Of a stretch of 34,273 nucleotides of DNA, positions 3,253 through 26,262 are shown piece after piece. Source of the stretch: Chitinophagaceae bacterium (GTDB lineage: Bacteria > Bacteroidota > Bacteroidia > Chitinophagales > Chitinophagaceae); assembly GCA_947463105.1 (NCBI GenBank), contig CANHSD010000001.1, positions 1-34,273 of the forward strand. The letters are read 5' to 3'. Position 1 is the stretch's first letter. Every line of letters starts with the position of its first letter. The notes beneath the pieces were generated by a model. That model did not search any database, was not told the DNA's origin, and saw only the letters and a program-made list of their open reading frames with translations. A program made the position numbers and the translations under genes.

Positions 3253-6038
3253 TTGGAAAGCAGATCGATGGGCATGATGAATTCCCATCGGTTTGGATTC
3301 GGAGGTTTTACAAACATTTTTGTATCCAGCAACCTGCTGTACCGCAGTCCGAAGGTCACGTTCTGTTGATTCCACCATTTGGTATCAAAGTAAATCTCCG
3401 TTCCTGCACTCCTGAAGTTGATGGTCTTTCCTGTTCTCAGACTCTTCAGGTGCATGTCGTCAAAAAAGAAATTGCTCCTGGCCCTCAAGAAATAGACAAT
3501 GTTGCCGATACCGAGGTCGGGATAGAGCAAAGGCATGTGGTAATTGAAGGATGTTCGCCACATGCGGGGATAATCAATGGCATCATAACCCCTGGCCATA
3601 GCAAACCCATTCGAAAATGAATACTGCCTTAGCGTGTCCCGCATCTGGTAATTGAAACCCAGTACCAGTGAATGGTTGCGCCCAACACCTGGCAAATACA
3701 ATTGTGAACCCCAAAACAACTGGTTGGCACTGGTGTTTCCAAGGGCCATCCTGCTCTGCAACCGGGTCATAAATGCGAAACGGGGATAGATTTGCTGGAC
3801 AGCCTGCTGGGTTTGCATGGACCAGCTGACCTGGTGCTGCAGATAGGGAATGAACCTGTCTTTGAGTGAAACAGTATTTTTATTATCATAGTCAACTGAT
3901 ACAGCATGGATTCTTGTAGAAAGGTCGAGCTGCTTGTACAACTTTCCAGCAGTGAAATTAAGGGGTAACCTCAAGCCAATATTACCGGTCCACTCATTCC
4001 AGCGAGTCAACCTGCTGCTGTCCTTGAAAGTTCTGTTCATGGTATAATTGGTTCCTCCGGTAATCCAGGGATAAAGCCCTCCATACGCCAAGTTCACACC
4101 CACCCGATGAGACCCCTCGTTTTCATTGTAAAGGTATTCGTAGGAGGAAACCATCGTATTCAGCAGGTTCTGCCCATAGAGGGAAAAGCTCCATTCGGGT
4201 TGCTCATAAAAAGGCCTCCAGGAATGAATCCGGAACAGACCCTCAGCCTTTTTATAATCAGAAATGGGATCAGTGGAAGCTTTGACACCGGCCATCAGGT
4301 CAGCTTCACTTGCTTTTTTCAGTGGATGGATATTGGCCTCCGTAAAGTGATAATCAGCACTATACACCTGCTCACCCTCTGCTGAAGGACTGCTGTAAAC
4401 AATTTTTCTACCATCCTCATGGATGTCTCCGGCATAAGATCCTGTAACCCCTTCTGCCAGGACGCCGGTTTTTCCAGACACCAGATCATGCTCCCAAAAC
4501 TGGTTGGTCTGACCCTGGGAAACAGTAAACACAAGCTTGTTTCCCCTGAGCCGGAGGAAAGACATGGGTGCATTGGTATACGGCAATACTTCCGAAAAGG
4601 AACCACTGTTCAAATCCAATCGCATCAGGGCCGATGTACCATTGTCTTTTCTAGAAATAACATAAACAATTGAATCCGAATGATTAAAAATAGGATAGCT
4701 AAAGTATAAACCGGAAACATTTTCAAATCTTTTCACCCTTTCACCGGTTTCCCGTTTGATCAAATCTAGGCTGGTTTTACCCCCCGGCGCAATATCTACC
4801 GCAATCAACTGCTGCCCATCATTGGACAAATCCGGAGAAAAATACCTCTTGCCCTTGGTAACACGCTGCGATGTTCGGTCATGAATATTGTACAGGGTGA
4901 TGTCACTGCTTTCCTTCCATTGCCACCTGGGATCAGGTGAATATGCGGCATAGACAATAATCCCCCTTTTATAGGTATAATAATCATCCACACCGATGTT
5001 CTTGACCCCCAATCTTGACAATTTACCTTGGTTAAAAATCACCCAATGGGGCAATTGGTTGTAGGCCTTGCGGAGGGCAAGGATAGAATCCCCTCCGAGC
5101 CAAATGGGAAAATGATGATCAACCACCCTTTTGGTATCCAACTTATTGATCATTAGAACCGAGGGATGATTTGCCACTACAGGCATTTTTGACTGAAACG
5201 AATCGATCGCATGCTTTACAAAAGCATTGAATTTGAGACCAGTATGCCTTTTGATGGCAGATTGGAGTGGATAAATCAGCCCCTTGAACCTGGCAGCATC
5301 ATCCGTAACCTTTGCCCAAAAGCCATCCCCATGCCTGCCATACCCATAGGCAACCAGCAGATAACCCAATGCATAATGATTGGGAACCAGGTCTTTCATC
5401 GAACCACTTCTCAGCTTCTGATAGCCATATTTCTTATTGGCCAGCCAAAGACTGCGGAAAGGATCATAAAAACCAGGGAGCCTGCCCCGACCCTGGCTGA
5501 GGTATTTTGTTTCAGTATAAACAGCATCACCTTCAAAAAACCAGTCCGGAACAGATGCGGAGTTGGCCAAGGTCTGACCTTCCTGCCCTGCAATCAGGTA
5601 GGCAAATTTTGAAAGGCCTTTACGGAAATTGGCATATTGATGCACATGCCTGTATTCATGAACGCTCAAATTGTCAAGCCAACTGGTTGAACCCAGGTTC
5701 AGGGCATCCTGAGGAGGAAACAAAAAGAATTCACTCCTCCAGGGGCCTAGTCCAACATAGGCATTTGAAACAGTGGGAAGTGTTTGTAGCACAATGGGTA
5801 TCCGCAAACTGGCATTTCCCAACCGACCAGAAGACTGGTTTTCCAACATCCGGGTAATTGCATTGACACGCATAGCAGCACTATCCGATCCATGGGGAAA
5901 GACTATTTCTGCAGCAGCTCCCCTAATTTTTTTCCATTTAACTGAAGAGGGATTGGCCCCGAATCGTTGACCATAGGTAGAAATGGAAACAGAAAAGATA
6001 AAAACTATTGATAAAGTCAATTTATAAATAAAACCCAT
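3249..6038 (-). CDS. Secreted/outer-membrane protein: HExxH zinc-metallopeptidase-like domain + TolB-like propeller + predicted C-terminal beta-barrel
   Basis: Signal peptide TYG|Q; HEYRH followed by WFFEGDAV (gluzincin-type third ligand); YFSPDLSNDGQQL PD40-like repeat; aromatic alternating strands in the last ~330 aa. Confidence 0.65.
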   Translation of the reverse strand: MGFIYKLTLSIVFIFSVSISTYGQRFGANPSSVKWKKIRGAAAEIVFPHGSDSAAMRVNAITRMLENQSSGRLGNASLRIPIVLQTLPTVSNAYVGLGPWRSEFFLFPPQDALNLGSTSWLDNLSVHEYRHVHQYANFRKGLSKFAYLIAGQEGQTLANSASVPDWFFEGDAVYTETKYLSQGRGRLPGFYDPFRSLWLANKKYGYQKLRSGSMKDLVPNHYALGYLLVAYGYGRHGDGFWAKVTDDAARFKGLIYPLQSAIKRHTGLKFNAFVKHAIDSFQSKMPVVANHPSVLMINKLDTKRVVDHHFPIWLGGDSILALRKAYNQLPHWVIFNQGKLSRLGVKNIGVDDYYTYKRGIIVYAAYSPDPRWQWKESSDITLYNIHDRTSQRVTKGKRYFSPDLSNDGQQLIAVDIAPGGKTSLDLIKRETGERVKRFENVSGLYFSYPIFNHSDSIVYVISRKDNGTSALMRLDLNSGSFSEVLPYTNAPMSFLRLRGNKLVFTVSQGQTNQFWEHDLVSGKTGVLAEGVTGSYAGDIHEDGRKIVYSSPSAEGEQVYSADYHFTEANIHPLKKASEADLMAGVKASTDPISDYKKAEGLFRIHSWRPFYEQPEWSFSLYGQNLLNTMVSSYEYLYNENEGSHRVGVNLAYGGLYPWITGGTNYTMNRTFKDSSRLTRWNEWTGNIGLRLPLNFTAGKLYKQLDLSTRIHAVSVDYDNKNTVSLKDRFIPYLQHQVSWSMQTQQAVQQIYPRFAFMTRLQSRMALGNTSANQLFWGSQLYLPGVGRNHSLVLGFNYQMRDTLRQYSFSNGFAMARGYDAIDYPRMWRTSFNYHMPLLYPDLGIGNIVYFLRARSNFFFDDMHLKSLRTGKTINFRSAGTEIYFDTKWWNQQNVTFGLRYSRLLDTKMFVKPPNPNRWEFIMPIDLLSN

Positions 6039-15652: not shown

Positions 15653-16789
15653 TTACTCTTCCCCGCTGTTTTTAAGAATCCCCATCAATTTGTAGGCATT
15701 GTTCAACACTATGGATCCGGCAGGAATTCCCTCATTGCCACTGATCAATGCTGTTTTTCCATCTTTGGAGAGTCCGGTAACGACTGCTTTCATTTCAACC
15801 ACATTCTCGGATTTCCTGACAAAAATATATTGCTTGTTGCCCAGTCTTACCACAGCCTCATCAGGAACGGCATCCACCATCTTGCTGCTTACAGACAACT
15901 CACCCTCCACAAACATACCCGGCAATAGGTTTTTGGGATGAACCTTAAAATGACAATGGGCAGTGGCGGTTCGGTCATCATCAAGGCCCTTGTTGACCAG
16001 AATCACCTCTGCAGCATAAGTCTTTTCCGGTTCATCCATGAAATGAATACTGACCTGGTTTCCTTTCTGCACATAAGGAAGATCCTTTTCAAAAAGGGTG
16101 AGTGCCACATGAATGTCTTCCGGATCAATCAACTCAAACATGGTTTCAGTGGGCTGAACATATTTACCTGTATTTACATTCACCTTAGACACATACCCAT
16201 TGATGGTTGACCGAACAGATGCCTGCCCAGAAATGTTGGATTCATTCAACGCGTTTACATCAATGCCAATCAACTTCAGTTTTTCCTGCAAAGACCTGAC
16301 CGCAACAGCCTGTAGCTTTTGCTCTGCCTGGGCCTGCTGCATGGCCCTTGAAGTTCCTGCACGGGCCTCCACAAGGGCCTTTTGCCTTTCCAGTTCAAGT
16401 CCTGCCAATTCAAGCCGTGCAGCAGCGGAAAGATAGTCCTGCTGCAGCTGAACAATGGCCTGGTCCTCCATGATGGCAATCTCCTCCCCTTTTGATACGT
16501 GCATGCCAGGAATGAGTTTTGTACTCCTCAGGTATCCTCCCAATGGAAAGTTGACAGAGATGAGGTTTTGTGGTGGAAGGTCTATTTTACCTTGCACCGT
16601 AATGATGCTGCTCATGCTGGTTTTAACAGGATCTCCATATTGAAGACCAAGCGCCTTCAATTGATTTTGGGTAAGGTTGATTTCATTGGTTTCTTCAACA
16701 GCTGCTTCTTCGGCAGGTGCGGTTTTACTTCCTGAACAACTTTGAATGAACAAGCAAACGAGGATGAATAAATACATTGAATATCTCAT
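15653..16789 (-). CDS. czcB: RND efflux periplasmic adaptor (CzcB/CusB-like), lipoprotein
   Basis: Lipobox-like FIQSC; coiled-coil hairpin; VRSTINGYV, LLPGMFV, VPDEAVV membrane-fusion-protein motifs; 3 nt downstream of czcA. Confidence 0.88.
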   Translation of the reverse strand: MRYSMYLFILVCLFIQSCSGSKTAPAEEAAVEETNEINLTQNQLKALGLQYGDPVKTSMSSIITVQGKIDLPPQNLISVNFPLGGYLRSTKLIPGMHVSKGEEIAIMEDQAIVQLQQDYLSAAARLELAGLELERQKALVEARAGTSRAMQQAQAEQKLQAVAVRSLQEKLKLIGIDVNALNESNISGQASVRSTINGYVSKVNVNTGKYVQPTETMFELIDPEDIHVALTLFEKDLPYVQKGNQVSIHFMDEPEKTYAAEVILVNKGLDDDRTATAHCHFKVHPKNLLPGMFVEGELSVSSKMVDAVPDEAVVRLGNKQYIFVRKSENVVEMKAVVTGLSKDGKTALISGNEGIPAGSIVLNNAYKLMGILKNSGEE

Positions 16790-16792
16790 GAA

Positions 16793-19700
16793 TTATTTTT
16801 TTTCTGTTAGAAATTGAAACGCTGCAGATGCCATTTGCAATTGATGAATGGTCTCAGCGTGAGCAATCAACACTTGTAAATGCTGCGACTGCAAGAGGCT
16901 GTATTCTGAATAAGATATATCGCCCAAATCCAGCCTTTTCCTGGCCTGGCTCCAGTTATCCGCCGACAACCGCAATCCCTCTGAAACATAGTATTCATGG
17001 GCCTCTTTGGCTGTATTGAAACGTGAAACCACATCAGCCAATCTTCTGTTCAGGTTTTCAAGCTGCTGTTGCTTTTGTATGGCAGCAATCTCTTCTTTGA
17101 TTTTGGCGGCATTGATTTTGGCCTTGGCAGCACCATTGAAAACAGGAATGGAAACCCCTGCCTGAACAATGCCAAAGCGATAGGAAGGTGCATAATACTT
17201 TTGCGAAATCCCGTCTGGTGTTTGCCATCCTGTAATAGAAAGATTGCTGTAGCCCAGGTTGAAATCGGGGGCAAGCCTGTTCTTCTCCAGGGCTGTTTGT
17301 GCAACCTGTTCCTTGACCGCTGCCTCTGCCATTTGGATAGAAGGATGATTTTCAAATGAGGCAATGAGTGCAGGGATATTTTTATCGACCACATTTTCTA
17401 ATGATGGTGTAAAGTTGTTACCCGACATGATCATCCCATTCAACTCCTGTATCAATGCATACCGGTCTGCTTCCAACTGTTTTTTCTGGAAGAGGTACTG
17501 CTTTGTTTGCAACGCAATGGCATTCAAGGCTGCTCCATTGATGTCACCTGCTTTTTGCTGTGCCTCTGCTTTTTTCTGCCACTCAGAAAAAACCCTTAAA
17601 AACCGGTATAAAATTTCATCCCTTCTATCAAGATCCATGATCCTGTAACAGAGTTGCCTGATGGCATGATGAAGCTCCGCCTGCTCAAGATATTTCTTCG
17701 CCTCCTGCAGACCTTCTGTCTTCTGGTATGCTTCTTTTTGTCTTGCATAGACCTTGGGCAATTGGAACTGCTGGTTCAGAAAAAACCGGGTATCATTGGA
17801 GGCGCTGTTGATGTTACCATATTCAGCACCAAAAGAAGTCTTGGGAATCTCTGCTGATTTTTTCTTTAGCCCTGCATAATATTCTACCTGTTTTTGAGCC
17901 ATTTTGAGGGTTAATGCATTCCTGTCTGCCATGGCGATGATGGAGTCAAGTGGCAATGAAGCTGCAGGCCTGGTATTGGGAACATGCCCACTCAATGGCG
18001 ACTCCATTGTCTGGCTGCTTGCAACAAGGGAAAAGAATCCCAGCAGCAGGGTAAGTGCCGGTGCCTTGATAGAACCTTTTCTTTTTTCTACCCAAACATA
18101 GAGCACTGGTAACACAAATAAGGTAAGCAAGGTGGCTGAAATCAATCCACCAATCACCACCGTAGCCAGTGGGCGCTGCACCTCAGCGCCAGAGCTTGTG
18201 CTCAATGCCATGGGCAGAAATCCCAGCGAAGCAACAGCAGCAGTCATCAATACAGGCCTTAGCCTGGTAGCGGTGCCTTTCAACACAAGATCCTTCATGT
18301 TCATTTGGGTTTCATTCTTCAGTCTGTTGAATTCATTGATCAATACAATTCCGTTCAAAACCGCCACGCCAAAAAGCGCGATGAACCCTACCCCAGCTGA
18401 GATACTGAATGGCATGTCGCGCATCCACAACAATAAAATGCCTCCAATGGCAGAAAGCGGAATGGCTGTGTAAATCAACAACCCGTATCTCAGTGAGCCA
18501 AAAGAAAAATACAGGATCAACAGGATCAACAACAAGGCAATAGGTACAGCAATCATCAACCGATCTTTTGCCTCGACGAGGTTCTCAAATTGCCCACCAT
18601 ATTTCACATAATATCCAGCAGGCAATGCAATGGTTTTCTCTGCCTTGGATTGAACCTCCTCAACAACAGATTGAACATCCCTGTCCCTGACATTGAAAGC
18701 CACTGTAATTCTTCGCTTGGCATCCTCCCGCTGAACCTGGTTGGGACCTTCCTGAATACCAATTTCCGCTACCTGTTCAAGGGGAACCGAAATCCCATCG
18801 GGATTGGTAATCATGAGGGTTTTGATGTCTGTCAGATCATTTCGCCTGTTTTCCTTCAAGCGCAAAACAAGGTCGAAGCGCCTTTCATTTTCATAGACCT
18901 GACCGGCAGATTCTCCTGCGAAAGAGGCCCTGAGCACCCTGTTGACATCCGCAATGCTCAAGCCATAAGCAGCGATGGCATTGGGTTTGTACTTGATGAC
19001 AATCTGGGGAAGGCCTGTTACCCTTTCAGTAAAAACATCCTTTGCTCCTTCCACCTTGTGAATGACCTCTTCGTATTGTGCGGCATAAAAAGCAAGGGTA
19101 TCCAGGTCTTCACCAAATATCTTGCAAACAACGTCTTGTTTCGCACCCGCGATCAATTCATTGAAACGCATCTGCACAGGGTACTGAAAACCACCAGTCA
19201 ATCCAGGTACCTTTCCAATGGCAACGCTCATCTTGTTCGCCAGTTCATCATAAGTGGATGCACTGGTCCATTCGTTTTTGGGTTTCAGGTTGACGATGAT
19301 ATCGGTCATTTCAATGGGCATGGGGTCAGTGGGAATTTCACTGGCGCCTATCCGGGTGACCACTTTTTGTACTTCAGGAAACTTTTTCAATTCATGAACG
19401 GCTTTGGTGGTGGCATCAACGGTTTCTCCCAATGAGCTCCCAGTCATCAACCTGGCATCAATGGCAAAATCACCCTCTTCCAATTCAGGAATGAATTCAC
19501 CACCCAAGGTTGAAGCAACATAAAATGAAAGAACCAAAAGAGCAACGGAAGCAGCCACCACTTTCCTCGGATGCTGCAGCAACCTGTCCAAGGCCCTTTG
19601 AAAACCATGTTGAAGCTTCAACATCATTCGATCAGAAATATTTTCCTTATGGTTGAGTTTTTTGCTCAACACAACACTTGTCATCATCGGCACATAGGTA

Positions 19701-21181
19701 AGGGAGAGGATAAAGGCCCCTACCAGTGCAAATGCGACAGTCTGTGCCATGGGCTTGAACATCTTGCCTTCGATGCCGGTTAGGCTAAGGATGGGGATAT
19801 AAACGATAAGGATGATGATTTGTCCAAACACTGCAGCTCCCATCATTCTTCCTGCAGATTGTTCAACGGTATGGTCCATCTGGCCCTGTCTCAGTTGCAG
19901 GCCCATGTGCTTATTGGAGTGCAGCCTGTGGAGTACTGCCTCCACTATAATTACTGCACCATCAACAATCAATCCAAAATCGAGCGCTCCTAAACTCATC
20001 AGGTTTCCTGTCACACCAAAAAGGTTCATCATGCCCACAGCAAACAGCATGGCCAGTGGGATTACTGAAGCTACAATCAGCCCTGCCCGGAGGTTTCCCA
20101 GGAAAAAAACCAGGATCAGTAAAACAATCATCGCCCCCTCCAGCAAATTGGTCTTTACAGTCCCCAATGTGCGGTTGACCATTTTGGTGCGATCCAGAAA
20201 AGTATTGATTTCTACCCCCTCTGGCAAGCTCTTTTCAATTTGCTTCATGCGCTCCTCAATATGCCCTATCACATCAGCAGCATTTTCTCCTTTCAACATG
20301 AGCACCACGGCCCCAGACACTTCTCCTTCATCCATGTAGGTAAGAGCGCCATACCGCACTGGGCTGCCAATTCTTGCTTCTGCAATATCCCTGATGTAAA
20401 TAGGGGTGCCAGCAGCAGATTTGGCCACATAGATATTTTGAATCTCTTCAATTGATTTGACAAGCCCTTCTGACCTTACAAACAAAAGTGAAGGACCTTT
20501 CTCAATATAGGCAGCCCCTGAATTCTGGTTATTGTTCTGGATGGCATTGAATACCTGGTCAAATGTCACCCCTGCCCCTTTCAATTTCACAGGATCAATG
20601 GCTACTTCGTATTGTTTTAGCTTACCACCAAAACTGCTCACATCGGCAACACCAGGAGTTCCCAACAATTGCCTCCTGATGATCCAGTCCTGGATGGTGC
20701 GCAATTCAGTGAGGTCATATTTATCCTCATATCCTTTCTTAGGTCGAACGATATACTGATAAATTTCACCCAGTCCTGTGGTGACAGGGGCTAGCTCAGG
20801 GGTACCTGCTTCTTTGGGGATTTCGTCCCTGACCAGCAGCATCCGCTCACTCACCTGTTGCCTGGCCCAATAAATGTCTTTGTCATCATCAAATACAACC
20901 GTAACTACAGAGAGACCAAATCTAGAAATAGACCTTATCTCTTTGATATCCGGTATGTTGGATGATGCCTGCTCGATGGGGAAAGTAATCAATCGTTCCA
21001 CCTCAAGCGAACCGAGGGTGGGTGAAACTGTAATGACCTGAACCTGATTGGAAGTGATGTCTGGAAGGGCGTCAACCGGAAGTTTAAACAACTCTATTGC
21101 GCCCCAAATGATCCATCCCAATGTAAATAATCCTATGATGAGCTTGTTCCTGATGGAAAAGCGGATGATTGCATTCAACAT
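16793..21181 (-). CDS. czcA: CusA/CzcA heavy-metal RND transporter fused to a C-terminal TolC-like outer membrane factor (1462 aa)
   Basis: LPVDALPDIT, GNLMSLGALDFGLIVDGAVIIVE, GFIALFGVAVLNG, RLRPVLMTA, EVQRPLATVVIGG, then ~406 aa helical OEP-like region; start set to ATG 21181. Confidence 0.92.
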   Translation of the reverse strand: MLNAIIRFSIRNKLIIGLFTLGWIIWGAIELFKLPVDALPDITSNQVQVITVSPTLGSLEVERLITFPIEQASSNIPDIKEIRSISRFGLSVVTVVFDDDKDIYWARQQVSERMLLVRDEIPKEAGTPELAPVTTGLGEIYQYIVRPKKGYEDKYDLTELRTIQDWIIRRQLLGTPGVADVSSFGGKLKQYEVAIDPVKLKGAGVTFDQVFNAIQNNNQNSGAAYIEKGPSLLFVRSEGLVKSIEEIQNIYVAKSAAGTPIYIRDIAEARIGSPVRYGALTYMDEGEVSGAVVLMLKGENAADVIGHIEERMKQIEKSLPEGVEINTFLDRTKMVNRTLGTVKTNLLEGAMIVLLILVFFLGNLRAGLIVASVIPLAMLFAVGMMNLFGVTGNLMSLGALDFGLIVDGAVIIVEAVLHRLHSNKHMGLQLRQGQMDHTVEQSAGRMMGAAVFGQIIILIVYIPILSLTGIEGKMFKPMAQTVAFALVGAFILSLTYVPMMTSVVLSKKLNHKENISDRMMLKLQHGFQRALDRLLQHPRKVVAASVALLVLSFYVASTLGGEFIPELEEGDFAIDARLMTGSSLGETVDATTKAVHELKKFPEVQKVVTRIGASEIPTDPMPIEMTDIIVNLKPKNEWTSASTYDELANKMSVAIGKVPGLTGGFQYPVQMRFNELIAGAKQDVVCKIFGEDLDTLAFYAAQYEEVIHKVEGAKDVFTERVTGLPQIVIKYKPNAIAAYGLSIADVNRVLRASFAGESAGQVYENERRFDLVLRLKENRRNDLTDIKTLMITNPDGISVPLEQVAEIGIQEGPNQVQREDAKRRITVAFNVRDRDVQSVVEEVQSKAEKTIALPAGYYVKYGGQFENLVEAKDRLMIAVPIALLLILLILYFSFGSLRYGLLIYTAIPLSAIGGILLLWMRDMPFSISAGVGFIALFGVAVLNGIVLINEFNRLKNETQMNMKDLVLKGTATRLRPVLMTAAVASLGFLPMALSTSSGAEVQRPLATVVIGGLISATLLTLFVLPVLYVWVEKRKGSIKAPALTLLLGFFSLVASSQTMESPLSGHVPNTRPAASLPLDSIIAMADRNALTLKMAQKQVEYYAGLKKKSAEIPKTSFGAEYGNINSASNDTRFFLNQQFQLPKVYARQKEAYQKTEGLQEAKKYLEQAELHHAIRQLCYRIMDLDRRDEILYRFLRVFSEWQKKAEAQQKAGDINGAALNAIALQTKQYLFQKKQLEADRYALIQELNGMIMSGNNFTPSLENVVDKNIPALIASFENHPSIQMAEAAVKEQVAQTALEKNRLAPDFNLGYSNLSITGWQTPDGISQKYYAPSYRFGIVQAGVSIPVFNGAAKAKINAAKIKEEIAAIQKQQQLENLNRRLADVVSRFNTAKEAHEYYVSEGLRLSADNWSQARKRLDLGDISYSEYSLLQSQHLQVLIAHAETIHQLQMASAAFQFLTEKK

Positions 21182-21186
21182 GATTT

Positions 21187-21223
21187 CTGATTTTTTTTGT
21201 GAACGGGTACCTAAAAAAATCAG
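21187..21223 (-). promoter_or_regulatory. Hairpin joining the leader ORF stop codon to the czcA initiation region
   Basis: Perfect 11-bp inverted repeat CTGATTTTTTT/AAAAAAATCAG; 3' arm covers -16..-6 of the czcA ATG. Confidence 0.6.
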
Positions 21224-21597
21224 CTGCATTTTGGAGGCTGAAAAACAGAAAACTGATGACACTGTGGCATCATACCCTTGCTGATCGGATTAAAATTGGA
21301 CATGTCCGACTGCCACAATGGTGCTAAATGAAAAGACTCCACTGGTGGATGGTATACCTGGGTGAACGAAATTCCTGTATTCCTCAAAGGAAGGGTTGCA
21401 TGCCTAACAGGATCTGAATTTTCATGGTTGCTGTCAAAATAATGGAATTGAATGAACTCAATGGCGGACAAGGGCTGACTGCTGTTTTTGTGCTCATAGA
21501 AATGGTCCACGAGATTGTCAAACTTAACCAACTCATCCATAAAATGCCCAGAGCTGATGATCTGAATGGCAACAATAAAAAAGATTACCTTTTTCAC
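21220..21597 (-). CDS. His-rich small protein ending FQPPK; candidate metal-responsive arrest leader peptide
   Basis: GTG start, N-terminal hydrophobic segment, HFYEH, HYFDSNH, HATLP, C-terminal VFQPPKCS; directly upstream of czcA. Confidence 0.7.
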   Translation of the reverse strand: MKKVIFFIVAIQIISSGHFMDELVKFDNLVDHFYEHKNSSQPLSAIEFIQFHYFDSNHENSDPVRHATLPLRNTGISFTQVYHPPVESFHLAPLWQSDMSNFNPISKGMMPQCHQFSVFQPPKCS

Positions 21598-21601
21598 TAT
21601 C

Positions 21602-21609
21602 TGAAGATA
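21602..21609 (-). promoter_or_regulatory. Variant -7 box (TATCTTCA) 4 nt before the GTG start
   Basis: TAnnTTCA variant with the same 4-nt spacing as the exact boxes at 24118 and 28723. Confidence 0.4.
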
Positions 21610-21702
21610 GGATTTTCGGCGTAATTCAAATGCACTATTTGCAGCATTGCCGCTTGGTAAACACTATCCGCAAGCACCTGATACAGATTTTGATGATATT
21701 TC

Positions 21703-22569
21703 TCATTTCTTCTTCCGCTTGATCACATTGAGGAAACTGCGCTCATAACTGATGGACAGAGAGGAGGTACCCATCCGGTAAGCCCCTCCACTGATCTGGA
21801 AGCGATAACCTGCATTGATTTTCGCATTGCTGTTCACAATCAGCTGTATGGCTGGGGCCAGGTCCATAAAGGAATAATCCCTGTCGAGACCCCTTGAGCC
21901 AATCAGTTCCAGATAAATGTTGAAGTTCGTCTGTTCATAGCTTGTATATTTTCTGGGGAGAAGTAAATACCCTGTGGAAAGACTGTAGTTAAACGACCGG
22001 TAACCATAAAAAGTTTGCCCACCAAAGTCTTTCCACCGGTCTGGATGCATTACCTCCACCAGGGAACCCGTGCCAGAGATGGCAAGCTTGTGCAGGAGTT
22101 GTGTCAGAATCAATCCTCCCTGAATGGCTGTCTGGTCTCCATCCCCGGTAATTTCCTCGTATTGCAAATCGTTCTTACTGATGATCCCCTTAACAAATGC
22201 AGCTGCCCTGAAATGGCGGTGAACATCATCAACAGACAATAACCTCAGTTTTGCATAAATGGAGGCAGATTCAAACCTCAGCTTTTGGTCTGGATATGTA
22301 TTGTACATATTACCAAAGCTTATTGCCGGCCTGAGCATAAGGAATTTACCCAATCCTATAGATGATTCCGCCATTTGCCTGGATGTTGTATGTTTATGTC
22401 CGAGTGCAGATTCCCCCATCCACTTGCCTGCATATTTAAAAGACAAAGACTTTGCTGGAACGTTGGAAGCAGGCTCACTATAAACATAAAGTTCCTGGGC
22501 AGTAAGGCTAAAGCAAAACAATACCAGGAAACCAAAAATCAGCGGTAAACGCAATTTGTAAGGGATCAT
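21703..22569 (-). CDS. Hypothetical exported protein, probable outer-membrane beta-barrel (288 aa)
   Basis: Signal peptide LTA|Q; amphipathic aromatic strands; ATG 22569 overlaps the upstream stop (ATGA). Confidence 0.65.
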   Translation of the reverse strand: MIPYKLRLPLIFGFLVLFCFSLTAQELYVYSEPASNVPAKSLSFKYAGKWMGESALGHKHTTSRQMAESSIGLGKFLMLRPAISFGNMYNTYPDQKLRFESASIYAKLRLLSVDDVHRHFRAAAFVKGIISKNDLQYEEITGDGDQTAIQGGLILTQLLHKLAISGTGSLVEVMHPDRWKDFGGQTFYGYRSFNYSLSTGYLLLPRKYTSYEQTNFNIYLELIGSRGLDRDYSFMDLAPAIQLIVNSNAKINAGYRFQISGGAYRMGTSSLSISYERSFLNVIKRKKK

Positions 22570-23114
22570 AACGTAACATGAAAAATTCCCACTGCTCCCC
22601 CAATTCCTTCGGGCATGACGCAGGGAGTGGATTTGGTGAATTGATAACAAGGAACTTTTGATCCTGTGGTCTGTTTCTTAAACGCTTTGGCTGATAAAAA
22701 CTTTTGGTCAATCACCCTTATCTCAAAACTGGATGGAGATTGCTGGGCTTTGACATCAATGAAGTGGAAAACATTGTCCCCTATTTTGACCTTTTTATCA
22801 TGCCCAATAGCTAAACCGGCCTGATTCACTTTCAACAAAAGTTTTGAAACAGAGAAACCGGCATCTTCCACTTTCTTCCGTATTGCTTCGATGTCCAGTT
22901 TAGCTCCAGGCCTGAAAACAATCAAGAAAGATGATGTTTCAAGATCTGTATCCACGCTATCAATAAAATCAAGGGAAGTAAGGTTGGTATAAATGGATTT
23001 TGCACAAAGAGCACAGGTCAGGCCGCTGGCCTGCAGACTGGCCTTGCTGATTTGTGAAAATGAAATAGTTGACCACAGGAGCATACCCATGATCAGGCTT
23101 AAAATTTTAGTCAT
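22566..23114 (-). CDS. Exported heavy-metal-associated (HMA) domain protein
   Basis: Signal peptide SFS|Q; GLTCALC metal loop; VEDAGF HMA C-terminal motif. Confidence 0.85.
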   Translation of the reverse strand: MTKILSLIMGMLLWSTISFSQISKASLQASGLTCALCAKSIYTNLTSLDFIDSVDTDLETSSFLIVFRPGAKLDIEAIRKKVEDAGFSVSKLLLKVNQAGLAIGHDKKVKIGDNVFHFIDVKAQQSPSSFEIRVIDQKFLSAKAFKKQTTGSKVPCYQFTKSTPCVMPEGIGGAVGIFHVTL

Positions 23115-23127
23115 GATGGTTGAAATG

Positions 23128-23154
23128 AGGGCCCATCTGTTGAGATCGGGCCCT
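23128..23154 (-). other. GC-rich intercistronic hairpin between the two HMA genes
   Basis: AGGGCCC-ATCT/AGAT-C-GGGCCCT stem; no U-tract on the coding strand, so more likely a stability element than a terminator. Confidence 0.5.
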
Positions 23155-23165
23155 TTGGTGATTGA

Positions 23166-23654
23166 TTATTTCTTACAACATTCCTTGCCCTTCTCACATT
23201 TTCCATCCTTGCAGCAAGCCTTGTCTTTTTCACATTTTCCGTCTTTGCAGCAGTCCATCTTGTGGTCACAGTTTTCCATGCCGCAGCATTCTTTTTTTGC
23301 ACCATCTTTGACCACAACAGCTGCAGCTTTTCTTTCATATTGGCAGCAACCATGGAGCTTGTTGTAAACTTCAGTTGGTGCGGTAACATCCTGTGTATCG
23401 TAACCGGATGCTGCAACGGCCTCCTGAATGGCCTTGGCATCAGTCTTCTTTGGCTTGTAAGAAACATTGAGTATTTTGGTTTCCTCACTCCAGCTTGCGG
23501 TTGAAGCACCGGCCTTTATTGCAGCAGTTTCAATGACTTTTTTACACATGCCGCAGTTTCCCCAAACCTTGATTTCCTCTGATTTTTGGGCAAACATTGA
23601 GGTGGAGAACAATAACGCGAACAGGAGTATTGAAAATGATATTTTAGTATTCAT
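23166..23654 (-). CDS. Exported HMA domain protein (CopZ/MerP-like) with Cys-rich repeat tail
   Basis: Signal peptide MFA|Q; GNCGMC; VAASGYD; LHGCCQYER; tail with 11 Cys. Confidence 0.87.
   Translation of the reverse strand: MNTKISFSILLFALLFSTSMFAQKSEEIKVWGNCGMCKKVIETAAIKAGASTASWSEETKILNVSYKPKKTDAKAIQEAVAASGYDTQDVTAPTEVYNKLHGCCQYERKAAAVVVKDGAKKECCGMENCDHKMDCCKDGKCEKDKACCKDGKCEKGKECCKK
23169..23288 (-). repeat. 36-bp (12-aa) coding tandem repeat CC-x4-C-x5, three units plus terminal CCKK
   Basis: CCGMENCDHKMD / CCKDGKCEKDKA / CCKDGKCEKGKE / CCKK. Confidence 0.85.
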
Positions 23655-23697
23655 TTTGATTGATTTTTGATAGATAAGAGTAAAGTAAGATGACCAA

Positions 23698-23738
23698 TGA
23701 AGTTGTTGAGCAGTGAAATACTACTCAAAAACAACTCA
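23698..23738 (-). promoter_or_regulatory. Hairpin starting at the stop codon of the HYC-CC-PP ORF
   Basis: mRNA UGAGUUG-UUU-UUGAGUAGU/AUUUC/ACUGCUCAA-CAACUUCA: 9-bp inner stem plus outer stem, then a G-poor pyrimidine-rich tract. Confidence 0.5.
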
Positions 23739-24113
23739 AATCCTGAAATTGCAGTTCAGGAGATAGGGCGGAGGCTTAATAAACTGCCTATGGAAAAAGC
23801 TTTTTGTATTGGGCGTTTTACAAGTAAACGAACTGTTATAATGGTCAAAAAAGAGGACTGATGAAAATGCTGGACTGAAATCAAAACCAGCAATCACTTG
23901 GCTCTCAAGAACAGAATTGTCAATTTTAATTACCTGTGGAAGATCGTGACAACATCCCTCATCCTCCATTCCACAAAATTCACATCCATGGCTGTCGCGC
24001 TCTCCAAAAGATACTGCAGCCAAATCTCCCATACAATAATGTGCACTGATTACAGTTCCACTGCTGGCGGCAGTGTAAACCATGAGCAACAGTATGGAGA
24101 GGATTTTTTTCAC
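23736..24113 (-). CDS. HYC_CC_PP-type small protein; candidate metal-responsive arrest leader peptide
   Basis: GTG start, hydrophobic N-terminus, HYC (25-27), CEFC (44-47), CCH (54-56), PPP (114-116), ends LNCNFRI; family name recalled from annotations, not searched. Confidence 0.8.
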   Translation of the reverse strand: MKKILSILLLMVYTAASSGTVISAHYCMGDLAAVSFGERDSHGCEFCGMEDEGCCHDLPQVIKIDNSVLESQVIAGFDFSPAFSSVLFFDHYNSSFTCKTPNTKSFFHRQFIKPPPYLLNCNFRI

Positions 24114-24117
24114 TCTA

Positions 24118-24125
24118 CAAAATTA
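24118..24125 (-). promoter_or_regulatory. -7 promoter box (TAATTTTG) 4 nt before the GTG start
   Basis: Exact TAnnTTTG; spacing suggests a leaderless mRNA. Confidence 0.65.
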
Positions 24126-24177
24126 ACAACAAAAACCTATTGAGGTTGAAAAAAGTAGCATTTTAACAGAAAAATGA

Positions 24178-26262
24178 TTAATTCACAAAATTCCAAAAAA
24201 TCCCCAACCGGAATACCATGCCGGGATTGGGATAATTGGGCGCCGAAAGGTTATTTTCTTTGAACCCAAAGCCATATTTCAGCGTTGCCGTATTCAGGTT
24301 CTCTAACCTGAGATAGGCTGTGAAACTTCTGATCCTGAAATGGGTGAAGCCAGTAATCTCTGGCCTTGGAGACAATTTACGCTGGTCCTGATAAAAGAAC
24401 TGCCCTGTCAGGGGTGAATACCCATCTGCAAAATATGCACTGACATACCGCAAATCAATACCAGAGGCAATCACGAGATTGCGAAAAGGTCTTGCCTCAT
24501 AAGACAACCTATTCCTGGTATAAAGCAGTGGCAAATGAATGGGGGCAGCACCTGCCTTGGTTTGAACATGAAGATCAAGGTACCATTTCCATTTTTTACC
24601 CAACGCAGTTTCCCGGCTGATGCCAGCCCGAACAAAATTGAACAATGGTGCGTACTGCGCCACTGTTTTGTAATCCTTGAAATAAGTGTAATTGGACTGC
24701 AGAAAATAACTGAAGCTCAGCCTTGCCTTTACACCATTCAGAAAGAGGCCAGCATTGATGGCTGTTACATTTTCATCATTGAAACTGGATGTTCTGAAAA
24801 CAGGAAAAGCAGTTTTTCTGGCATAGAGGTAAGAAGGAGAACGGTTGATGTTGTTAAACCCAAGTTCCAACGATCCCAATGGGCCAAGTTTTGTCTGGAG
24901 GTTGGCCTGCACATTGTAATTGCCCGCATCCCTGCCAGCAGCATAAAACTCACCATACAAGAGCATGTCCCATTTTTTATTACGGGTCCGGTTCCTGTAT
25001 TCCCCATGCAACATGAGGTTACCAAAAACATCCCTCAATGAATCAGGAGAGGAGGAAAATTGCTGCAGGGTTATGCCAGCTTTTAAAAACTGCAATGGGT
25101 TTTTTGAATCGGGAAATTGAATGATGGAAAAATCATTTTTCAAGACCGACCAATTGCTATTGAGGTCCACTGTATCTGGAACATTGGCAAACCCATAATT
25201 GGACTTGTAAAAATTTTCTGCATTGCGTGCCTGCACATCCAGAAAATGATAGGCATAACCATTGGATTGAACCGTATGTTCCAAGCGGAGCTTGGGATAG
25301 AAAAAACGCACAACAGTTGAATCTGTCACTACAGAATCTTTGATACCAAAATCATACTGTTGCCTCAGCAAGAGGTGTTTATCTGTGTACCTGTTACCAG
25401 TGATCAATTTGACATTGAAAAAATTCCTGGAAGAATAGGCAGCAGATGCAAGATTGGTTGGGATGTTGAACCTGTCGTCGTAAGCAGGATTTTGATTCAC
25501 CAGCAAGGATTCATCTGTAATACCACCGTTTTCTGCGGTTTGCAATGCATTCGAAAGCAGGATCAGGTAGGCATGATACCGCTTGCTTTTTGAGGTATAA
25601 TCTGAATTGAACCGGATGTTGTTGTGGTTGGTGTTTTGGGAATTGAATGTCCCAGGTGCATTGACCAGCCTGTATTCCAGCACGAAGTTCCAATCGGGCA
25701 TCACATTCTGTGTATGCAAAATACTGATCTGCTGCTCAGCCTTGCTCCCCACCAGATAGCCTAATTCAGTAAAGGGCTTGGTGGTATTCATGAACCGCGT
25801 ATCTGAAATCTTCAGGGCAAATGGATCGAGTGCATGAAAACCGGCATCCCAGCCAGGCATTCTCATCGGAGAGAATAGAATAGGCCTTGTCGCATTGCCA
25901 TTGTGCCCAATGTTGATGAGGTCTGCCTTGAGGGGAACCCTGCGAAAAAAATCGTTGATGGAGGAATCGAAGACATTGTATCGGGCTGTATCAAGATAGC
26001 GAAAACGGACATTGACAGAATCATCTGAGAACTTGCGTTTTTCAAAACTAAGGGAATCACTTCCTCCTCCACCTGCACTTCCCCCACCCGATCCACTACC
26101 TCCCATCCTGGAACCCATCCCCTGCATGCTACGCATCATCCCGCGCATTTGTGCAGCAGCAGAAAAAGTTGAGAGCATAGCCATCACCAACAAAAACAAG
26201 AGAAGCATCCCTGTTCTTGGAGGCTTCTGCGCTTGTATTGATTTGATGAAATTGCCGTTCAT
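24178..26262 (-). CDS. Putative beta-barrel porin (Bacteroidota putative porin family)
   Basis: Signal peptide AAA|Q; NTTKPFTELGY, LHTQNV, ENGGI, YFADGYSPLTGQF, C-terminal FRLGIFWNFVN; start may instead be 26208. Confidence 0.75.
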   Translation of the reverse strand: MNGNFIKSIQAQKPPRTGMLLLFLLVMAMLSTFSAAAQMRGMMRSMQGMGSRMGGSGSGGGSAGGGGSDSLSFEKRKFSDDSVNVRFRYLDTARYNVFDSSINDFFRRVPLKADLINIGHNGNATRPILFSPMRMPGWDAGFHALDPFALKISDTRFMNTTKPFTELGYLVGSKAEQQISILHTQNVMPDWNFVLEYRLVNAPGTFNSQNTNHNNIRFNSDYTSKSKRYHAYLILLSNALQTAENGGITDESLLVNQNPAYDDRFNIPTNLASAAYSSRNFFNVKLITGNRYTDKHLLLRQQYDFGIKDSVVTDSTVVRFFYPKLRLEHTVQSNGYAYHFLDVQARNAENFYKSNYGFANVPDTVDLNSNWSVLKNDFSIIQFPDSKNPLQFLKAGITLQQFSSSPDSLRDVFGNLMLHGEYRNRTRNKKWDMLLYGEFYAAGRDAGNYNVQANLQTKLGPLGSLELGFNNINRSPSYLYARKTAFPVFRTSSFNDENVTAINAGLFLNGVKARLSFSYFLQSNYTYFKDYKTVAQYAPLFNFVRAGISRETALGKKWKWYLDLHVQTKAGAAPIHLPLLYTRNRLSYEARPFRNLVIASGIDLRYVSAYFADGYSPLTGQFFYQDQRKLSPRPEITGFTHFRIRSFTAYLRLENLNTATLKYGFGFKENNLSAPNYPNPGMVFRLGIFWNFVN

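What the first reader, a model, noticed from the sequence alone, without database searches (positions are those of the whole stretch)
21181..21609. His-rich QPP leader whose stop codon pairs with the czcA initiation region
Seen: the mRNA reads ...CAG CCU CCA AAA UGC AGC UGA UUUUUUU-15 nt-AAAAAAAUCAG AAAUC AUG. The perfect 11-bp stem starts 8 nt after the second Pro codon and its 3' arm covers -16..-6 of czcA. Known: Bacteroidota mostly lack Shine-Dalgarno pairing and depend on unstructured A-rich upstream sequence. Inference: czcA translation is off unless a ribosome on the leader (paused at QPP, or released and reaching UGA) melts the stem, a secM-secA-like switch. The sequence alone cannot say whether metal promotes or relieves the stall. 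The stem is AU-rich and weak.
Basis: partly seen in the sequence, partly recalled or inferred. Interest (0 to 1): 0.8.

Follow-up and report, generated by a model that had tools for sequence, protein, structure and literature searches.

The report
Histidine leader switch for metal pump
A small gene just ahead of a heavy-metal export pump encodes a histidine-bearing peptide that ends in two prolines, and across more than a hundred related bacteria the RNA at its end is complementary to the pump's start region, so it is likely a metal sensor that would switch the pump on by pausing a ribosome, a design proven for copper in other bacteria but untested in this group.

Summary
The leader (21597-21220, minus strand, 125 aa) has no Pfam or NCBIfam match, yet heads a large Bacteroidota family (3,046 clusters at 50% identity). 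Members share a hydrophobic N-terminus, three near-invariant histidines, a linker of about 52 residues and [WF]QPP[KR]; 163 of 198 loci precede czcA. The stem is weak alone but conserved as pairing: in 120 non-redundant junctions the 30 nt from the first Pro codon pair with their own czcA start region far better than with others (z -15; ordinary junctions z -0.9). New: a Bacteroidota -7 promoter box ends 3-6 nt before the leader's start in 127 of 179 loci, so its mRNA is probably leaderless. Best reading: a CutF-like exported metal sensor whose stalled ribosome opens the stem. CutF-cutO is a closer precedent than secM-secA. Against: at this locus a Pro-Pro-stalled ribosome would open the stem only partly; 30 of 120 junctions show no pairing advantage; one relative keeps stem and pump without the leader. 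Stalling, metal binding and direction are untested. The scan noted similar RAPP/RGPP leaders on other DNA. New variant of a known kind.

The parts
21602..21609 (-). Candidate Bacteroidota -7 promoter box (TATCTTCA, 2 mismatches to TAnnTTTG), ending 4 nt before the leader's GTG; implies a leaderless mRNA (inferred)
   Evidence: family: box with at most 1 mismatch 3-6 nt before an in-frame start in 127 of 179 leaders vs 2-8 of 179 in four control windows and 48 of 675 ordinary genes; box lies at -12..-5 of the transcription start (PMC9723704)
21220..21597 (-). Leader ORF, 125 aa, GTG start, TGA stop; no Pfam or NCBIfam family
   Evidence: 3,046 relatives at E<=0.001 among 50%-identity representatives
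21547..21597 (-). N-terminal basic plus hydrophobic segment: Sec signal peptide or signal anchor (inferred from hydropathy only; cleavage not tested)
   Evidence: best 11-residue Kyte-Doolittle mean 3.16 here, above 1.8 in 178 of 179 leaders; helix 2-15 in the model
21388..21546 (-). Helical His domain, residues 18-70: H32, H36, H52, Y53, L69, P70; predicted metal site, mostly Cys-free
   Evidence: H32 198 of 198, H52 195, H36 179, P70 198; no Cys in this stretch in 153 of 179; helices 18-37, 45-54, 56-59, 63-66, block pLDDT 78-97
21244..21387 (-). Unstructured linker, variable in sequence, conserved in length
   Evidence: P70 to first Pro: quartiles 51-54 residues, 5th-95th percentile 49-55, n=198; almost no secondary structure in the model
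21229..21243 (-). FQPPK, candidate ribosome-arrest motif ([WF][QHR]PP[KR])
   Evidence: WQPPK 74, FQPPR 30, FQPPK 24, WQPPR 21 of 198; 2-4 codons to the stop in 177 of 198; all four Pro codons used at both positions
21213..21223 (-). 5' arm of the stem: last base of the Ser codon, UGA stop, seven U
21187..21197 (-). 3' arm of the stem, -16..-6 of the czcA start, covering the A-rich -12/-13 region
   Evidence: A fraction peaks at 0.52-0.55 around -12..-10 in czcA starts and 0.46-0.59 in ordinary starts
16793..21181 (-). czcA: CusA/CzcA-family RND pump fused to an outer-membrane factor, 1462 aa; the regulated gene
   Evidence: PF00873 + PF02321; TIGR00914 1151 bits, cut-off 701; best solved relative ZneA 655 bits, CusA 600
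15653..16789 (-). czcB-like periplasmic adaptor, 378 aa, 3 nt after czcA

Best explanation
The leader gene encodes a histidine-bearing peptide ending in FQPPK whose last codons and stop are complementary to the czcA start region; it is likely a cis-acting, co-translationally exported metal sensor, on which metal would prolong a ribosome pause at the two prolines and so hold the stem open and switch on translation of the pump. Steps: (1) a housekeeping promoter starts the mRNA at or next to the leader's start codon (inferred from the -7 box spacing). Many of these starts are GTG or TTG, which would keep ribosome traffic low so that the stem refolds between ribosomes (inferred). (2) The hydrophobic N-terminus takes the nascent chain into the Sec channel (inferred). 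(3) When the prolines reach the peptidyl-transferase centre, about 52 linker residues span the exit tunnel and the membrane, so the His domain has just reached the periplasm (spacing shown; geometry by analogy with CutF). (4) A divalent metal bound by H32, H36 and H52 lengthens the pause (untested; direction inferred from the target being an exporter). (5) The paused ribosome, and more fully one that goes on to the stop, sits on the 5' arm and frees the A-rich, Shine-Dalgarno-free start region of czcA (pairing shown statistically; opening computed).
For: Architecture matches CutF: export signal, metal ligands, fixed spacing, C-terminal prolines, stem over the next start. Pairing is locus-specific: z -15.4, 38 of 120 loci in the best 5% where 6 are expected; z -12.4 GC-stratified; z -6.7 on 21 cluster representatives; coding part (z -7.8) and stop-plus-12-nt part (z -7.0) each covary. 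It is position-specific: neighbouring leader windows z -1.3 to -2.2, neighbouring czcA windows -3.6, -1.6, -1.4; ordinary junctions z -0.9, 6 of 120. Pairing probability peaks at +8..+23 from the first Pro base (0.47 vs 0.09 in chimeric controls) and on -24..-6 of the start. The helix's 5' edge has median +9 (n=80), inside the 11 nt that the mRNA channel holds beyond the P-site base (PMC7282821). Of 59 loci with more than 2 kcal/mol total opening, 34 gain at least half with cover to +13 and 50 with cover to +16. Other targets include metal exporters: VIT1 twice, a cation-efflux protein, an outer-membrane factor. The pump does without the peptide in relatives: 35 of 38 readable genus loci, picked mostly for lacking a leader match, have none upstream, and in one clade of 14 the czcA start sits where the leader's start is (4 of them aligned). 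This fits a removable cis module.
Against: No stalling, metal binding, export or expression was measured. QPP is not a demonstrated arrest motif: PMC12992588 has 0 occurrences, and EF-P is present in this genome. At this locus the stem begins at +15, so a ribosome with the first Pro in the P site leaves it nearly intact (11.3 to 11.1 kcal/mol) and one with the second Pro gains 2.4 of 7.6. Whether the helix follows the prolines or the stop is undecided (slopes 0.44 +- 0.21 and 0.63 +- 0.25). 30 of 120 junctions pair no better than the median mismatch and 61 of 120 gain under 2 kcal/mol even at termination. G014 keeps a 9-bp stem and a full 1462-aa czcA with the leader deleted. Leader-less loci do not show clearly more open starts (mean 8.5 vs 9.1 kcal/mol, n=35 vs 3). 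Several other targets (DUF2231-like, YceI, thioredoxin-like, cytochrome c, TonB receptors) are not exporters.
Confidence: 0.58

Rival explanations
1. Inverse timing: without metal the ribosome arrests at the prolines short of the stem and blocks traffic to the stop (pump off); metal-induced folding pulls the chain free, and the ribosome that reaches the stop melts the stem and couples into czcA (pump on). Same parts and same output, but metal relieves the arrest, as in CruR.
For: This locus: opening cost 11.1 at cover +13, 8.9 at +16, 4.6 at +19 and 3.7 at termination. Helix edges partly follow the stop codon. Metal relieves arrest in CruR (PMC9426467).
Against: Family-wide a stalled ribosome already gains a median 58% (+13) to 82% (+16) of the full opening; only 4 of 59 loci gain under a quarter at +16. 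A long arrest would therefore switch most members on, not off.
Confidence: 0.17
2. Plain translational coupling: the peptide is a small exported metal-binding helper, and the stem only ties czcA translation to termination on the helper gene, with no metal-controlled pause.
For: A terminating ribosome removes the stem in every model. The stop codon is part of the stem. The His domain is predicted to fold well.
Against: It does not explain two prolines kept in 196 of 198 alignment rows with free codon choice, nor a linker of fixed length and free sequence. Ordinary junctions show no such pairing. The gene is lost in many relatives that keep czcA.
Confidence: 0.12
3. The ribosome position on the leader controls transcription (Rho-dependent or intrinsic termination before czcA), as for CruR, and the pairing is secondary.
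For: The first half of the spacer is U-rich (0.41 vs 0.34) and the median spacer is 85 nt. CruR works through Rho.
Against: No terminator-like site at this locus. Terminator-like hairpins in 19 of 120 spacers vs 26 of 120 ordinary ones; C over G in 89 vs 82 of 120. The spacer here is only 38 nt. The pairing targets the start region itself.
Confidence: 0.07
4. A SecM-type monitor of export capacity or envelope state, not of metal; the histidines are structural.
For: Same design as SecM; the targets are mostly membrane or exported proteins.
Against: Three near-invariant His in a short helical domain; 163 of 198 targets are a heavy-metal pump, none of the 35 others was identified as a sec or yidC gene.
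Confidence: 0.05
5. The stem is a chance match of a U-rich spacer with an A-rich start region.
For: z only -0.8 on 101 nt; 7 of its 11 pairs are A-U from homopolymer runs.
Against:: mismatched, GC-stratified, flanking-window and ordinary-junction controls all fall far short of the native pairing.
Confidence: 0.01

Closest known systems
CutF-cutO of Rhodobacter capsulatus (PMC9973294; bioRxiv 10.1101/2025.02.05.636593)
   Same: Small upstream gene with export signal, metal ligands, a spacer of similar length (45 residues there), C-terminal prolines and a stem over the start of a metal-detoxifying gene. The mBio survey lists CutF-like genes in Bacteroidota (19% of 5,334 entries) and CusA/CzcA among the neighbour classes.
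   Different: Three His and mostly no Cys instead of CxxxC; [WF]QPP[KR] instead of PPP; the stem hides an A-rich start region without Shine-Dalgarno and includes the leader's own last codons and stop; likely leaderless mRNA; likely divalent-metal target. The survey's two His-only clusters lie beside HupE/UreJ genes, not czcA. Its member list and logos could not be seen, so the family may be inside it.
CruR (Bp2923, DUF2946/PF11162) of Bordetella pertussis (PMC9426467)
   Same: Metal-responsive upstream ORF with conserved spacing between ligand and C-terminal diproline motif.
   Different: CXXC and RAPP; copper relieves arrest and triggers Rho termination of an import operon; 162-nt spacer. Only 2 of 72 members touch PF11162, best E 0.018.
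SecM-secA and RAPP-type arrest peptides (ApdA, ApdP; PMC10951233, PMC12992588)
   Same: Exported nascent chain, C-terminal proline motif, stalled ribosome acting on the next gene's start.
   Different: They monitor protein export and need Arg-Ala/Gly before the prolines; here the -2 residue is Trp or Phe and -1 mostly Gln, and the target is a metal pump.
CzcI of Cupriavidus metallidurans
   Same: Small gene ahead of czcCBA, suggested metal-sensing regulator; nearest named cluster by language-model features (0.92, 111 of 256 shared).
   Different: Lacks the C-terminal proline motif; the feature overlap is in the range of chance or distant hits.
HYC_CC_PP family (NF047658)
   Same: Bacteroidota small exported proteins with a late PP; one heads the metal-chaperone genes upstream in this window and has the same box-4 nt-GTG start.
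   Different: Cys-rich; similarity to the His family is limited to 17 N-terminal columns.

Membership tests
CutF-like proteins (rule-based class of PMC9973294) | Under 150 aa | tested here: met
   125 aa
CutF-like proteins (rule-based class of PMC9973294) | PP within the last 15 residues | tested here: met
   PP at 121-122 of 125; family
CutF-like proteins (rule-based class of PMC9973294) | N-terminal signal peptide | tested here: inconclusive
   Basic start and hydrophobic stretch; no signal-peptide predictor available; could be an uncleaved anchor
CutF-like proteins (rule-based class of PMC9973294) | Same-strand metal-homeostasis gene within 1,000 nt | tested here: met
   czcA 38 nt downstream
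CutF-like proteins (rule-based class of PMC9973294) | Found by iterative profile search from CutF seeds (lists B-D) | not testable with these tools
   File S1 not held; Fig. S6 is a picture
CutF-like proteins (rule-based class of PMC9973294) | Metal-dependent stalling that opens a stem and acts only in cis | not testable with these tools
   Needs toeprinting and reporters; only the stem's conservation was tested
DUF2946 / PF11162 (CutF, CruR) | Match to the Pfam profile | tested here: not met
   No match for this protein; 2 of 72 members at best E 0.018
DUF2946 / PF11162 (CutF, CruR) | CXXC-type motif and RAPP | tested here: not met
   No conserved Cys column; motif [WF]QPP[KR]
RAPP/RGPP arrest peptides | Arg-Ala/Gly-Pro-Pro near the C-terminus | tested here: not met
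   None of the 37 motif types in 198 loci is RAPP or RGPP
SecM/MifM/VemP monitoring substrates | Downstream gene is part of the Sec/YidC machinery | tested here: not met
   163 czcA; 35 others scanned with Pfam, none identified as sec or yidC, 13 without a match
HYC_CC_PP (NF047658) | Match to the NCBIfam profile | tested here: not met
   0 of 72 members
Known RNA families (Rfam 15) | Covariance-model match over the junction | tested here: not met
   Window 20900-24300: one chance row (snoRNA, E 0.32, 24.9 of 50 bits) away from the junction

The most novel reading that the evidence does not exclude
Bacteroidota control their main heavy-metal pump with a phylum-wide, unnamed class of leaderless, cysteine-free nascent-chain sensors: a three-histidine domain reads periplasmic divalent metal through the Sec channel, a new arrest code ([WF]QPP[KR]) converts it to ribosome dwell time, and the ribosome gates initiation by freeing an A-rich enhancer instead of a Shine-Dalgarno sequence. 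This would be the first non-copper transmembrane stalling sensor and a natural on/off switch for Shine-Dalgarno-free initiation.
Probability: 0.4. Interest if true: 0.8.

Novelty: new variant of a known kind. Interest (0 to 1): 0.6.

Why it matters
Only two metal-sensing nascent peptides turned up as tested in my searches, CutF and CruR, both for copper, both cysteine-based, both in Proteobacteria. This family extends the design to a histidine site, a probable divalent metal, a different proline motif and a phylum that initiates translation without Shine-Dalgarno pairing. It gives a compact test of whether hiding the A-rich -12/-13 region is enough to gate initiation in Bacteroidota, and of how ribosome dwell time is turned into an on/off signal. 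With about 3,000 sequence clusters, covarying stems and natural deletion variants, the mutants to build are already pointed out by the data. The principle itself is known, which caps the surprise.

Tried and rejected
1. Family names: Pfam and NCBIfam gave nothing credible for 72 members; the protein atlas gave unnamed Bacteroidota clusters. 2. Fold searches: no PDB match at E<=0.001; best Z 3.7 among 48,161 chains; this says nothing either way about a new fold. 3. A named-genome scan with the 13-row alignment could not run, so organism names are lacking; the only name is a database label, Chitinophagaceae, on one close protein. 4. RNA data: 8 runs hold 5-6% of the words; 4 of them were laid as contigs and none covers the leader body. 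They cannot show starts, strand or level; three of them carry the same leader deletion as G014. 5. Terminator and sigma-70 promoter scans at the locus: none; that promoter model does not fit this phylum. 6. The 132-aa frame at 23111-23509 was first taken for a second leader joined to czcA in relatives; it overlaps the real 162-aa chaperone gene, and its near relatives mostly carry internal stops. Rejected. 7. The longer czcA frame (1489 aa from a GTG at 21262; in-frame ATG at 21229) is not the likely start: that ATG is absent from the 10 closest homologues. 8. Whether the helix is anchored to the prolines or to the stop: undecided. 9. Best-duplex scans and opening energies of leader-less czcA loci did not separate them from leader-bearing ones. 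10. A 16S 3'-end motif search in the assembly found nothing, so the anti-SD was not checked. 11. Paper searches for this family listed no study of it; the motif search returned 119 papers, of which the 20 listed are unrelated. Subscription papers are mostly outside this library.
Full report
Observation. The leader runs 21597-21220 on the minus strand, 125 aa from GTG, with 9 His and the end FQPPKCS. The 11-bp stem joins 21223-21213 (last sense base, UGA, seven U) to 21197-21187, which is -16..-6 of the czcA AUG. It folds at -9.5 kcal/mol; 1 of 200 shuffles of the 47-nt piece does as well, but 45 and 57 of 200 do on 101 and 141 nt. One locus alone therefore proves little. The next gene is a 1462-aa CusA/CzcA pump fused to an outer-membrane factor, followed by an adaptor. 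Its best solved relative is the zinc pump ZneA (655 bits), ahead of CusA (600), a modest lean to divalent metals.

The protein family. The leader has no Pfam or NCBIfam match; among 72 members only chance-level rows appear, including 2 at E 0.018 or worse to DUF2946. A profile finds 3,046 clusters at 50% identity; most of the best 150 are 120-135 aa long. Matches occur in 54 of 401 genomes of the phylum with a 13-row profile and 165 of 401 of the class with a 72-row profile. From 205 fetched loci, 198 rows had a leader with a late PP and a readable next gene; 5 were dropped (3 no next gene, 2 no PP) and a few rows are duplicates. H32 and P70 are invariant, H52 is in 195, H36 in 179. The His stretch has no Cys in 153 of 179 non-redundant members, and 178 of 179 have a hydrophobic N-terminus. 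The model (mean pLDDT 81) shows an N-terminal helix, a helical domain over 18-66 and an unstructured tail; H32 and H36 are one turn apart on one helix. That they bind metal with H52 is inference. From P70 to the first Pro the length is 51-54 residues (quartiles) with free sequence. The motif is [WF][QHR]PP[KR], with all Pro codons in use, so selection acts on the peptide. The next gene is czcA in 163 of 198; the other 35 include 2 VIT1, 1 cation-efflux, 1 outer-membrane factor, 9 with a DUF2231 row (mostly below cut-off), 3 YceI, 2 TonB-plug proteins, 1 thioredoxin-like and 1 cytochrome c, plus 2 VIT1-unrelated weak extra rows; 13 had no match.

The stem across the family. I kept 150 of 198 junctions after removing near-duplicates, spacers over 200 nt and tails over 8 residues: 120 czcA and 30 others. 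The 30 nt from the first Pro base pair with their own start region (-22..+5) at -8.42 kcal/mol, against -5.43 for mismatched partners (z -15.4; 0 of 20,000 permutations; 38 of 120 in the best 5%). Neighbouring windows give z -1.3 to -3.6. The 30 other targets give z -4.5. This locus ranks in the best 2%. GC-stratified permutation gives z -12.4; 21 loci, one per czcA cluster, give z -6.7; the coding part and the stop-plus-12 part each hold (z -7.8, -7.0); 30 of 120 are no better than the median mismatch. 120 of 160 crudely called ordinary junctions of this genome give z -0.9. Pairing probability peaks at +8..+23 from the first Pro base and over -24..-6 of the start, about five and three times the chimeric controls. 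In the 11 closest loci the 9-bp core is 98% paired around a loop that changes freely, with one U-A to C-G change in 2 related loci; 7 of 9 pairs never vary and so say little.

Ribosome geometry. The mRNA channel holds 11 nt beyond the first P-site base (PMC7282821, passages). RAPP peptides stall with the first Pro in the P site (PMC10951233, passages); XPP/Y motifs stall after the last Pro (PMC4176338, passages). I removed the covered RNA and computed the cost of opening -20..+13. Family mean: 9.1 kcal/mol with the ribosome upstream, 7.5 at cover +13, 6.8 at +16, 6.4 at +19, 6.2 at termination; ordinary junctions barely move (7.7 to 7.4 at +16). A drop above 2 kcal/mol at +16 occurs in 50 of 120 vs 10 of 120. 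Among the 59 loci with a total drop above 2, 34 gain half at +13 and 50 at +16. This locus is an exception: 11.3, 11.1, 8.9, 4.6, 3.7, so full opening needs one more codon or termination. A regression could not tell whether the helix follows the prolines or the stop. These are equilibrium models with an assumed footprint.

A probably leaderless start. A TAnnTTTG-like box (at most 1 mismatch) ends 3-6 nt before an in-frame start in 127 of 179 leaders (95 perfect), against 2, 3, 7 and 8 of 179 in control windows, 5 of 148 czcA starts and 48 of 675 ordinary genes. The box occupies -12..-5 of the transcription start, and leaderless mRNAs are 5.5% in Flavobacterium psychrophilum (PMC9723704, passages). 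The starts are GTG 54, ATG 47, TTG 22, CTG 4. Here the box has 2 mismatches and 4 nt to the GTG, so read-through from upstream may also feed the operon. Bacteroidota initiation depends on low structure and upstream adenines (PMC6847099, passages), which is what the 3' arm covers.

Natural deletions. In the genus 75 of 81 genomes match czcA but 29 of 81 match the leader with a single-protein query. I read 41 upstream regions, picked mostly for lacking a leader match: 3 had no recognisable start, 3 had a leader, 35 had none; the 35 fall into 14 sequence groups, so they are not independent. In one group of 14 the czcA start lies where the leader's start lies in relatives (4 aligned with 3 leader-bearing loci). 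7 of 35 have a box with at most 1 mismatch 3-7 nt before czcA, against 3 of 120 leader-bearing loci. So the pump is often kept while leader and spacer go together. Three loci keep spacer remnants. G014 lost the leader by a deletion but keeps a 9-bp stem and a full czcA, with no start codon in the remnant frame; contigs of three RNA runs show the same joint. That argues against a strict off state, or marks a silenced pump. G835 and G017 carry altered stems. Leader-less starts were not clearly more open.

Mechanism and rivals. The best reading is a CutF-like sensor with metal-prolonged pausing (0.58). Shown: family, conserved residues and spacing, gene order, locus-specific complementarity, promoter spacing. 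Inferred: export, metal binding, pausing, direction, leaderless start. The inverse timing (0.17) fits this locus's geometry but not most members. Plain coupling (0.12) leaves the prolines and linker unexplained. Transcription termination (0.07) finds no excess of terminators or C-rich spacers. An export monitor (0.05) does not fit the targets.

Comparison with what is known. CutF: copper bound in the periplasm delays a Pro-rich stall and unfolds a stem over the cutO ribosome-binding site (PMC9973294: abstract, last part of Results, first part of Discussion, passages; bioRxiv 10.1101/2025.02.05.636593: abstract and Discussion). That paper's survey includes Bacteroidota and CusA/CzcA neighbours; its His-only clusters lie beside HupE/UreJ. 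Its member file was not held and its logos are a picture, so this family may already be listed there. CruR uses CXXC, RAPP and Rho (PMC9426467, passages). A 2025 RAPP/RGPP survey has no mention of QPP, CusA or efflux (PMC12992588, passages). The leader works like CutF and meets the testable rule-based criteria, but is not a DUF2946 or RAPP member. Searches listed no study of the family. Two earlier notes of this scan describe His-rich RAPP or RGPP leaders before the same kind of pump in other genomes; I did not test whether they are the same family, and my reading was fixed before seeing them.

Verdict. A real, widespread and probably regulatory element; new variant of a known kind; interest 0.6.

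Noticed in passing
window 23736-24113 (-): A second candidate metal-sensing leader: HYC_CC_PP family protein (NF047658, 33.3 bits, cut-off 28) heading two CopZ/MerP-like genes; a perfect -7 box ends 4 nt before its GTG, so it too looks leaderless.
   Followed up: partly
window 16793-21181 (-): czcA is fused in frame to its outer-membrane factor through a hydrophobic linker that resembles an internal signal sequence; earlier notes of the scan report the same in other genomes.
   Followed up: no
L248 (G014:C33) 430-515; window 21218/23148 joint in runs X1-X3: A deletion, apparently at a short shared sequence, removes the 182-aa chaperone gene, the 315-aa gene and nearly all of the leader, leaving the last leader codons, the stem and an intact czcA.
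   Followed up: yes
L249 (G026:C96) 3236-3532: Another deletion joins leader codon 99 out of frame to czcA codon 18, removing the proline motif, the stem and the czcA start.
   Followed up: partly
L250 (G835) and L251 (G017), 100 nt before czcA: The leader is cut down to its first codons; in G835 a 14-codon mini-frame stops on the old 5' arm, and both stems carry changes.
   Followed up: partly
window 23128-23156 (-): Strong GC hairpin between the two CopZ-like genes, kept in G014; possible terminator or stabiliser.
   Followed up: no
window 21625-21660 (-): A conserved block about 35-55 nt upstream of the leader start is shared with leader-less czcA loci of the genus; it may be a promoter or operator element.
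   Followed up: no
window 21703-22650 (-): A conserved exported-looking protein with no Pfam or NCBIfam match sits between the chaperone genes and the leader in many genus members.
   Followed up: no
whole genome G000: Among 675 long genes, perfect -7 boxes pile up 4 nt before the ATG (14 genes), pointing to a small set of other leaderless genes.
   Followed up: no
L016, L022, L048, L049, L056, L057, L092, L094, L098, L112 and others: The commonest non-czcA target is an N-terminally His-rich DUF2231-like membrane protein; in L016 and L022 the stop region again pairs with its start region.
   Followed up: partly
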